Below, piece by piece: positions 5,865-5,991 of a stretch of DNA of 64,000 nt; the stretch's first letter is position 1, and each line of letters opens with the position of its first letter. The stretch is from a virus (taxonomy: Duplodnaviria; Caudoviricetes). Under the pieces are notes generated by a model. That model searched no databases and was not told the origin of the DNA. It was given only the letters and a program-made list of their open reading frames with translations. The stretch spans positions 1 to 64,000 of the IMG/VR virus record IMGVR_UViG_3300050161_000042. One strand, given 5' to 3'. The translations under genes and the position numbers were made by a program.

Positions 5865-5991
5865 GCTGAAATCGTTGGGCCTTACGTTTAAGGGCGGTTA
5901 TTGTGCCCACCATGCAAACAAAGATTCATTTTGCTTGAAAAGTTTGAATCTTCCCCAGTGTCAGTGAGGAAACCTTTCTAGCGATTTCAGC
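5865..5991 (-). ncRNA. candidate multibranch structured RNA (~127 nt)
   Basis: Perfect 10-bp closing stem GCTGAAATCG/CGATTTCAGC enclosing four short hairpins; no ORF; downstream of tRNA-Arg. Confidence 0.55.

What the first reader, a model, noticed from the sequence alone, without database searches (positions are those of the whole stretch)
5865..5991. Compact multibranch RNA closed by a perfect 10-bp stem, downstream of tRNA-Arg
GCTGAAATCG (5865-5874) and CGATTTCAGC (5982-5991) enclose four helices: CCTTA/TAAGG, GGGC/GCCC, AGATTCA/TGAATCT (5922-5951) and TTCCCCA/TGAGGAA (5951-5971, with a G-U pair on the minus strand). Some abut with no linker, suggesting coaxial stacking. The 5865-6185 interval has no credible ORF, and the element ends exactly at box 5. 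Candidate new phage sRNA co-transcribed with tRNAs.
Basis: partly seen in the sequence, partly recalled or inferred. Interest (0 to 1): 0.7.

Follow-up and report, generated by a model that had tools for sequence, protein, structure and literature searches.

The report
Hairpin RNA cassette after phage tRNA
A 165-base non-coding insert that folds into a long hairpin sits after a phage tRNA gene, is present in only some sister phages, and keeps its base pairing through compensatory mutations, so it is probably a real structured RNA module whose role is still unknown.

Summary
The 10-bp stem is real. It is the inner third of a 29-bp stem (5846-5874 / 5982-6010), the best inverted repeat in the window. 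The 3' arm of that stem is box-a of the box pair. The whole 165 nt folds far better than shuffles (z -8.5). The 107-nt interior alone does not (z -0.45).

Only three sequence variants exist in all collections searched: the window, L163-165 and L176. They differ at 10 columns plus one loop indel. Two pairs changed on both sides and stayed paired, three changes are G-U compatible, and no pair breaks in the stem or in two inner hairpins (P = 5e-4 in a null simulation). All non-Watson-Crick pairs are G-U on the minus strand, which is the strand of the tRNAs and early genes.

Sister phages L166 and L177 carry the same flanks and a single intact box-a but no element. The element is therefore an insertion-polymorphic, promoter-less mini-cassette set in the centre of a palindrome, inside a PeSL-like cassette array. 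It has no Rfam match, no second copy and no partner gene.

Best reading: a co-transcribed structured 3' trailer of the tRNA operon, likely an RNase III-type processing or stability hairpin. A trans-acting sRNA is not excluded. Interest is moderate.

The parts
5846..5874 (-). 3' arm of the 29-bp stem.
   Evidence: Position 5872 covaries with 5984. Position 5870 pairs with the variable 5986 (A-U or G-U).
5875..5981 (-). 107-nt core that caps the stem. It contains two hairpins supported by substitutions and other helices that remain ambiguous.
   Evidence: Folding energy is not above chance.
5982..6010 (-). 5' arm of the stem. It is a degenerate inverted copy of box-a (5992-6006) plus the 10-mer.
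   Evidence: It differs from a perfect complement of box-a by two C-to-T changes, which give G-U on the minus strand, and one transversion, which gives U.U at 5993/5863.
5951..5971 (-). Hairpin UUCCUCA/UGGGGAA.
   Evidence: Two one-sided changes keep pairing (5952 U-A to U-G in L163; 5955 U-G to U-A in L176). The 1-nt insertion in L176 falls in the loop.
5892..5908 (-). Hairpin GGGC/GCCC.
   Evidence: 5906/5894 is G-C in the window and A-U in L163 and L176.
5821..5835 (.). Box-b of the box pair, 14 nt from box-a.
6011..6183 (.). Conserved spacer module between tRNA-Arg and the element.
   Evidence: 98-100% identical in L163, L166, L176 and L177. It folds better on the plus strand.
6184..6258 (-). 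tRNA-Arg(UCU).
6384..6453 (-). tRNA-Ile-like gene with anticodon UAU, first gene of the operon.
   Evidence: 21 bits against the Rfam tRNA model. 97-100% conserved in L166, L176 and L177.
6466..6493 (-). Sigma-70-type promoter of the tRNA operon (11 of 12 consensus positions, with TG).
5756..5784 (-). Consensus promoter of the next cassette (GP88 gene, 5003-5725).

Best explanation
The feature is the inner part of a 165-nt non-coding module (5846-6010) that acts on the minus strand. It has a 29-bp stem. The 3' arm of the stem is box-a of the local box pair and the 5' arm is a degenerate inverted copy of it. The stem is capped by a 107-nt core.

The module is a promoter-less mini-cassette set in the centre of the box-a palindrome. 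It lies in an early region built like the PeSL arrays of T4-type phages, where a repeated stem-loop plus a strong early promoter is the place at which cassettes are gained and lost.

SHOWN: the anatomy; presence or absence at the orthologous site in sister phages; base pairing kept by substitutions; a strand bias towards the minus strand.

INFERRED: it is transcribed from the promoter at 6493-6466 as the 3' trailer of the tRNA-Ile(UAU)/tRNA-Arg(UCU) operon. Its near-perfect two-and-a-half-turn double-stranded stem then acts in cis as an RNase III-type processing site and/or a 3' stabilising barrier. This would separate the tRNA transcript from the next cassette and possibly release the capped core as a stable RNA of about 110-150 nt.
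For: STEM. 27-nt inverted repeat at 89%. As minus-strand RNA it is 29 positions with 1 mismatch, -71.7 kcal/mol, z -8.5. It is the best inverted repeat in the window.

HOMOLOGS. L163-165 and L176 come from independent assemblies.

STRUCTURE. All 162 pair cells of a 54-pair model are standard pairs. Two pairs changed on both sides, at 5984/5872 and 5906/5894, and three changes are G-U compatible. In the null simulation, P(no broken pair and at least 2 compensated pairs) = 5e-4.

STRAND. The mirrored structure on the plus strand has only 85.8% of cells paired, with 23 A.C cells. Fold energies favour the minus strand by 7-11 kcal/mol. All promoters in the region face the minus strand.

CASSETTE NATURE. 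L166 and L177 keep the spacer (98-99% identical) and go straight into one intact box-a, with no element. Homology-block breakpoints between the window and its relatives fall at box pairs elsewhere too. [quoted passage not shown]

ANALOGY. Palindromic Correia elements in transcripts bind RNase III and are either cleaved or protected by it (PMC2649163 abstract).
Against: There are no expression data. Transcription through the element, RNase III cleavage and any stable product are all inferred. There is no U-tract after the stem, so it is not an intrinsic terminator. Only three variants exist and they represent few independent events; the column-shuffle control is weak (67 of 500). The fine structure of the core is unstable between predictions and its energy is at chance level. 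Close relatives do without the element, so any function is dispensable. The host and its RNase III are unknown, and the record encodes no RNase III.
Confidence: 0.5

Rival explanations
1. It is a trans-acting small RNA gene. The stem serves only to excise and protect a core of about 110-130 nt, which then binds a host or phage target, either RNA or protein.
For: Structure is conserved on the transcribed strand, including an inner hairpin with a compensatory change. It lies in a tRNA operon. From my own knowledge, phage T4 also encodes two stable RNAs of unknown function in such an operon.
Against: It has no promoter or terminator of its own. Core energy is at chance level. The best complementarity to the rest of the 88.5-kb record is a 13-mer, roughly what chance predicts. 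Sister phages lack the element. No wider family exists.
Confidence: 0.2
2. It is selfish palindromic DNA, either a MITE-like element or an inverted duplication created at the box-a palindrome. It has no RNA function, and pairing is kept because the terminal repeats or a single-stranded DNA hairpin are needed for its own mobility.
For: It has 27-29-bp terminal inverted repeats, a size of 145-165 bp, is non-coding, and shows filled and empty orthologous sites that do not follow the GP88 tree. MITEs are known in viral genomes (PMC11602168).
Against: It is single-copy in the record. No copy turned up in IMG/VR, JGI metagenomes or 185,579 species genomes by pattern, nor in five whole box-bearing phage records. 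There is no target-site duplication, because the flanks are the two halves of a palindrome. No transposase is in the record. A 4-bp inner hairpin with a compensatory change is hard to explain by terminal-repeat recognition.
Confidence: 0.2
3. It acts on the plus strand as part of the upstream leader or insulator of the antisense HNH homing-endonuclease gene that relatives carry next to the spacer.
For: In L163 and L176 the order on the plus strand is element, spacer, HNH. The spacer folds better on the plus strand (z -5.3) and carries a plus-strand terminator-like hairpin at 6031-6056.
Against: The window has the element but no HNH. L166 and L177 have HNH and spacer but no element. The element's non-Watson-Crick pairs are G-U on the minus strand and A.C on the plus strand. 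No plus-strand promoter was found upstream.
Confidence: 0.05

Closest known systems
PeSL (promoter-early stem-loop) regulatory cassettes of T4-type phages (PMC2839356, PMC4122927)
   Same: A repeated composite motif of a stem-loop plus a consensus sigma-70 early promoter punctuates a hyperplastic early region. Indels between sister phages are bounded by the motif. [quoted passage not shown]
   Different: The motif here is a pair of 15-bp palindromes with a 14-nt GC-rich spacer, not a GGGG...CCCC hairpin. The phage is not recognisably T4-like. The cassette content is a 107-nt non-coding core without its own promoter, not an ORFan. The second motif copy is inverted and degenerate, so cassette and motif together form one long hairpin.
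Correia (CREE), ERIC and REPIN-type palindromic elements of bacteria (PMC2649163, PMC3116915)
   Same: They are about 100-160 bp with long terminal inverted repeats, are insertion-polymorphic, are co-transcribed with neighbouring genes and fold into long RNA hairpins. Correia elements bind RNase III and are either cleaved or protected by it.
   Different: Those families are multicopy in one genome and have defined target duplications. This element is single-copy, lies in a phage, has no detectable relatives outside three phage lineages, and one of its arms is a resident regulatory palindrome.
Stable RNAs of the phage T4 tRNA gene cluster (species 1 and 2, rnaC and rnaD; from my own knowledge, not checked in a paper here)
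   Same: Small non-coding RNAs of about 120-140 nt are encoded with phage tRNAs and co-transcribed with them. Their function is unknown.
   Different: There is no sequence or model match. The T4 RNAs are constant parts of the cluster, not insertion-polymorphic hairpins.
RNase III processing stems, such as those flanking 16S/23S rRNA and the T7 early-mRNA sites (established knowledge)
   Same: Long-range pairing of flanking sequences forms a stem of at least 20 bp that encloses an RNA segment within a polycistronic transcript.
   Different: Cleavage has not been tested here. The enclosed segment has no known function.

Membership tests
Any curated Rfam family | Covariance-model score at or above the gathering threshold | tested here: not met
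   Only the two tRNAs pass. With E up to 10 on 5700-6600 there are only spurious miRNA and snoRNA rows.
tRNA or tRNA-like gene | Cloverleaf found by ARAGORN or the Rfam tRNA model | tested here: not met
   nothing within 5846-6010
PeSL-type cassette array | A repeated composite of a stem-loop and a consensus sigma-70 early promoter through a variable early region | tested here: met
   30 box matches against 0.03 expected, all within 2.5-12.6 kb. 12-of-12 promoters lie just downstream on the minus strand.
PeSL-type cassette array | Indels between related phages are bounded by the motif | tested here: met
   The element is bounded by box-a and a degenerate box copy. The empty sites L166 and L177 have one box. 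Other breakpoints lie at about 5864, 6900, 7452 and 8191.
PeSL-type cassette array | The stem-loop terminates transcription, and cassettes carry an ORFan with its own promoter | tested here: not met
   There is no U-tract after the boxes or after the long stem, and no promoter or credible ORF inside the element. Terminator activity itself cannot be tested here.
MITE | Terminal inverted repeats, small size, non-coding, filled and empty sites | tested here: met
MITE | Multiple dispersed copies and a target-site duplication | tested here: not met
   One copy in the 88.5-kb record. None elsewhere. The flanks are inverted half-boxes, not direct repeats.
RNase III substrate | Nearly continuous double-stranded RNA of about two helical turns or more | tested here: met
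   28 pairs over 29 positions, invariant or compensated in all three variants.
RNase III substrate | Cleavage by RNase III | not testable with these tools
   Needs an enzyme assay or a comparison of rnc-plus and rnc-minus cells.
Bacterial Y RNA (YrlA) with Ro | A Ro (TROVE) protein partner and a match to the Rfam model | tested here: not met
   No TROVE match in the record. No Rfam hit.
Retron msr-msd | An adjacent reverse transcriptase | tested here: not met
   No RVT_1 match in the record. The neighbours are GP88 and tRNAs.
HEARO / omega RNA of IscB | A match to the Rfam model and an adjacent IscB-type protein | tested here: not met
   No Rfam hit. The HNH protein of the relatives is a free-standing 130-aa protein and is absent from the window.

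The most novel reading that the evidence does not exclude
This is a new kind of mobile RNA cassette: a promoter-less structured RNA that moves between phages by recombination in the loop of PeSL-like palindromes. By bringing an inverted copy of the palindrome it builds its own RNase III excision stem. It would then be released from the tRNA operon as a stable RNA of about 110-150 nt with a trans function in host take-over or counter-defence.
Probability: 0.15. Interest if true: 0.75.

Novelty: new variant of a known kind. Interest (0 to 1): 0.42.

Why it matters
If the reading holds, PeSL-like cassette shuffling is not confined to T4-type phages or to protein-coding ORFans. It would also move small structured RNAs, and a resident regulatory palindrome can be recruited as one arm of a long processing stem. 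The case is compact and testable: filled and empty natural alleles exist, so it can show how phages place RNA processing or stability signals at cassette borders of tRNA operons. As it stands the element is restricted to one lineage, is dispensable and has no known function, so its importance is moderate.

Tried and rejected
KNOWN FAMILIES AND PUBLIC PHAGES. Rfam at gathering and at E up to 10 gave nothing relevant. blastn of 5700-6500 against 50,697 public phage records hit only the tRNA.

EXACT-PATTERN SCANS. None matched for the stem, a core block, a spacer block or a degenerate terminal-repeat pattern. Collections scanned: IMG/VR, JGI metagenomes and species genomes.

LOCAL SEARCHES. blastn and nhmmer of the element against 160 fetched loci found nothing. 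Covariance model R1 over 92 sources and over five whole box-bearing phage records matched only the three known variants. The same box-plus-flank inverted architecture was absent from about 500 other boxes.

OTHER COPIES AND TARGETS. No second copy or antisense target exists in the 88.5-kb record.

CODING. Rejected. The 13-codon minus-strand frame loses its ATG in L163 and L176. The 36-codon frame runs through both boxes, and its four substitutions are two synonymous and two non-synonymous. L176 has a 1-nt indel.

DECAYED HNH GENE. Rejected. The HNH protein of the relatives finds nothing in the record, and relatives have the HNH elsewhere, beside the spacer.

PARTNER-DEPENDENT RNA CLASSES. Y RNA, retron and IS200-type elements have no partner genes in the record.

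ASSEMBLY ARTEFACT. Rejected. The element is present in independent assemblies from different samples.

HYPERVARIABLE CORE. Considered and dropped. The element's 5.4% divergence from L176 is close to the gene background of 7-8%. It is the spacer that is unusually conserved.

LITERATURE AND KINSHIP. A paper search for the T4 stable RNAs found nothing in the library.

Full report
SETTING. The window is the first 64 kb of an 88.5-kb IMG/VR virus record that is estimated to be about half complete. It is a tailed phage with a divergent terminase and divergent tail-fibre genes, and it is not recognisably T4-like.

Positions 2.5-12.6 kb form an early region read on the minus strand. A 15-bp palindrome (CTGCCA-N3-TGGCAG) occurs 30 times against 0.03 expected, mostly as pairs separated by a GC-rich 14-mer. 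Each pair is followed on the minus strand by a consensus sigma-70 promoter.

On the minus strand the cassette that holds the finding reads as follows:
- promoter 6493-6466
- tRNA-Ile-like gene with anticodon UAU, 6453-6384
- a 19-codon hydrophobic micro-ORF
- tRNA-Arg(UCU), 6258-6184
- a 173-nt spacer, 6183-6011
- the element
- box-a, 5864-5850, and box-b, 5835-5821
- promoter 5784-5756
- a GP88-family gene, 5725-5003

OBSERVATION. The perfect 10-bp stem exists, but it is the inner part of a longer inverted repeat: 27 nt at 89% in DNA. Read as minus-strand RNA it spans 29 positions (6010-5982 with 5874-5846), with one U.U mismatch and three G-U pairs. Its 3' arm is box-a itself. Its 5' arm is an inverted copy of box-a that has lost its own palindromic symmetry.

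The 165-nt unit folds at -71.7 kcal/mol, z -8.5, and this is the best inverted repeat in the window. The 107-nt interior alone is at chance level (z -0.45). The interval has no credible ORF and no Rfam match.

RELATIVES. Nothing similar was found in public phage records, IMG/VR, JGI metagenomes or species genomes by pattern. Relatives were reached through the neighbouring GP88 protein and through an HNH protein. The orthologous site shows four states:
- L163-165 and L176, the latter being the closest relative (GP88 92% identical in DNA): tRNA-Arg, an antisense 130-aa HNH endonuclease gene, the spacer, the element, the boxes.
- L166 and L177: tRNA-Arg, HNH, the spacer, then directly one intact box-a and box-b, with no element.
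- L162: tRNA-Arg followed at once by the boxes.
- L174 and L173: no boxes at that place.

The window itself has the spacer and the element but no HNH, and it carries a different tRNA-Arg allele.

The element is therefore an indel of about 145 nt at the centre of the box-a palindrome. The outer 10 positions of each arm correspond to the resident half-boxes and their flanks. The inner 19 come with the insert. Filled and empty states do not follow the GP88 tree: L177 is close and empty, while L163 is distant and filled.

Homology blocks between the window and these relatives break at box pairs elsewhere as well. For example, the window cassette 6891-7451 is missing from four relatives. [quoted passage not shown]

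STRUCTURE TEST. There are three distinct sequences, from independent assemblies. They differ at 10 columns and one 1-nt indel.
- In the stem, 5984/5872 is U-A in the window and C-G in the other two.
- In the stem, 5986/5870 is A-U in the window and G-U in the other two.
- In the hairpin at 5951-5971, two one-sided changes swap U-A and U-G, and the indel lies in the loop.
- In the hairpin at 5892-5908, 5906/5894 is G-C in the window and A-U in the other two.
- The remaining three changes lie in unpaired positions of the consensus model.

In a 54-pair model all 162 cells are standard pairs. The tool's column shuffle is weak with three rows (67 of 500). Ten random substitutions leave no pair broken in 7% of trials, give two or more compensated pairs in 0.27%, and do both in 0.05%.

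CCTTA/TAAGG never varies. The fine structure of the core changes between predictions, so only the stem and the two hairpins are supported.

STRAND. Every non-Watson-Crick pair of the model is G-U on the minus strand. Mirrored onto the plus strand, 23 cells become A.C and pairing falls to 85.8%. Energies favour the minus strand by 7-11 kcal/mol. The structure was derived on the minus strand, which biases this comparison. However, the four G-U positions of the stem are defined by the inverted repeat alone. The minus strand is also the strand of all promoters here. The adjacent spacer behaves the opposite way and folds better on the plus strand, so the spacer and the element are separate modules.

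MECHANISM. The following points are shown:
- It is a conserved, insertion-polymorphic, non-coding hairpin module.
- Its pairing is under selection.
- It is oriented with the tRNA operon.

It has no promoter, no U-tract terminator, no partner gene and no antisense target in the record.

I infer that it is transcribed as the 3' trailer of the tRNA operon. A 29-bp, almost perfect duplex is the classical determinant of RNase III substrates (established knowledge). Palindromic Correia elements in transcripts bind RNase III and are either cleaved or protected by it (PMC2649163). The most likely role is therefore a cis-acting processing or stability hairpin at the border between the tRNA transcript and the next cassette. 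Release of a capped RNA of about 110-150 nt is a possible by-product or purpose.

The rivals are a trans-acting sRNA, a selfish MITE-like or fold-back DNA element, and a plus-strand leader of the HNH gene. The first two remain open. The third fits poorly.

VERDICT. The feature is real and more extensive than described. The "new sRNA" reading is only partly supported, because the element is a dispensable mini-cassette with no expression evidence. It is a new variant of known kinds (PeSL cassettes and palindromic hairpin elements), confined to three known phage lineages.

Noticed in passing
window 6270-6329 (-): A 19-codon hydrophobic micro-ORF lies between the two tRNAs. It is preceded by a GAAAGGA-type ribosome-binding site and a 4-codon mini-ORF. 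The peptide is conserved, with amino-acid variation, in L162, L163, L166, L174, L176 and L177. It is likely a real membrane micro-protein inside a tRNA operon.
   Followed up: partly
window 6011-6183: The spacer module is 98-100% identical in four relatives whose genes are only 75-93% identical. It folds much better on the plus strand (-51.4 kcal/mol, z -5.3) than on the minus strand (z -3.3). It carries a plus-strand terminator-like hairpin at 6031-6056. In relatives it lies just upstream of the antisense HNH gene. It may be a regulatory leader, an insulator, or a co-conversion tract of the homing endonuclease.
   Followed up: partly
L163:4790-5182, L166:2505-2897, L167:3001-3357, L168:3001-3357, L176:1594-1986, L177:1737-2129: A 118-130-aa HNH endonuclease gene always sits antisense immediately 3' of tRNA-Arg(UCU). 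This holds even in unrelated phage contexts (L168, which has T4-like neighbours). The window lacks the HNH gene and carries a different tRNA-Arg allele fused directly to the spacer. This looks like a homing endonuclease that targets the tRNA-Arg locus.
   Followed up: partly
window 6891-7451 and other box-bounded blocks in 2500-12650: Homology blocks between the window and L162, L163, L166 and L177 break at the box pairs. The cassette with the 169-aa gene (6899-7408) is unique to the window. This supports PeSL-like modular shuffling in a phage that is not T4-like.
   Followed up: partly
window 6384-6453 (-): The tRNA-Ile-like gene with anticodon UAU scores only 21 bits on the Rfam tRNA model and ARAGORN misses it. 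It is nevertheless 97-100% conserved in L166, L176 and L177. L163 has a different tRNA with the same UAU anticodon loop at the same place.
   Followed up: partly
Viral-contig loci L006, L028, L029, L039, L062, L082, L117, L118 and others: The exact 15-bp box, usually as pairs 29 nt apart, occurs many times per contig in dozens of IMG/VR phage contigs. These contigs share no other nucleotide similarity with the window. The motif is therefore a widespread regulatory or recombination signal of a large uncultured phage group.
   Followed up: partly
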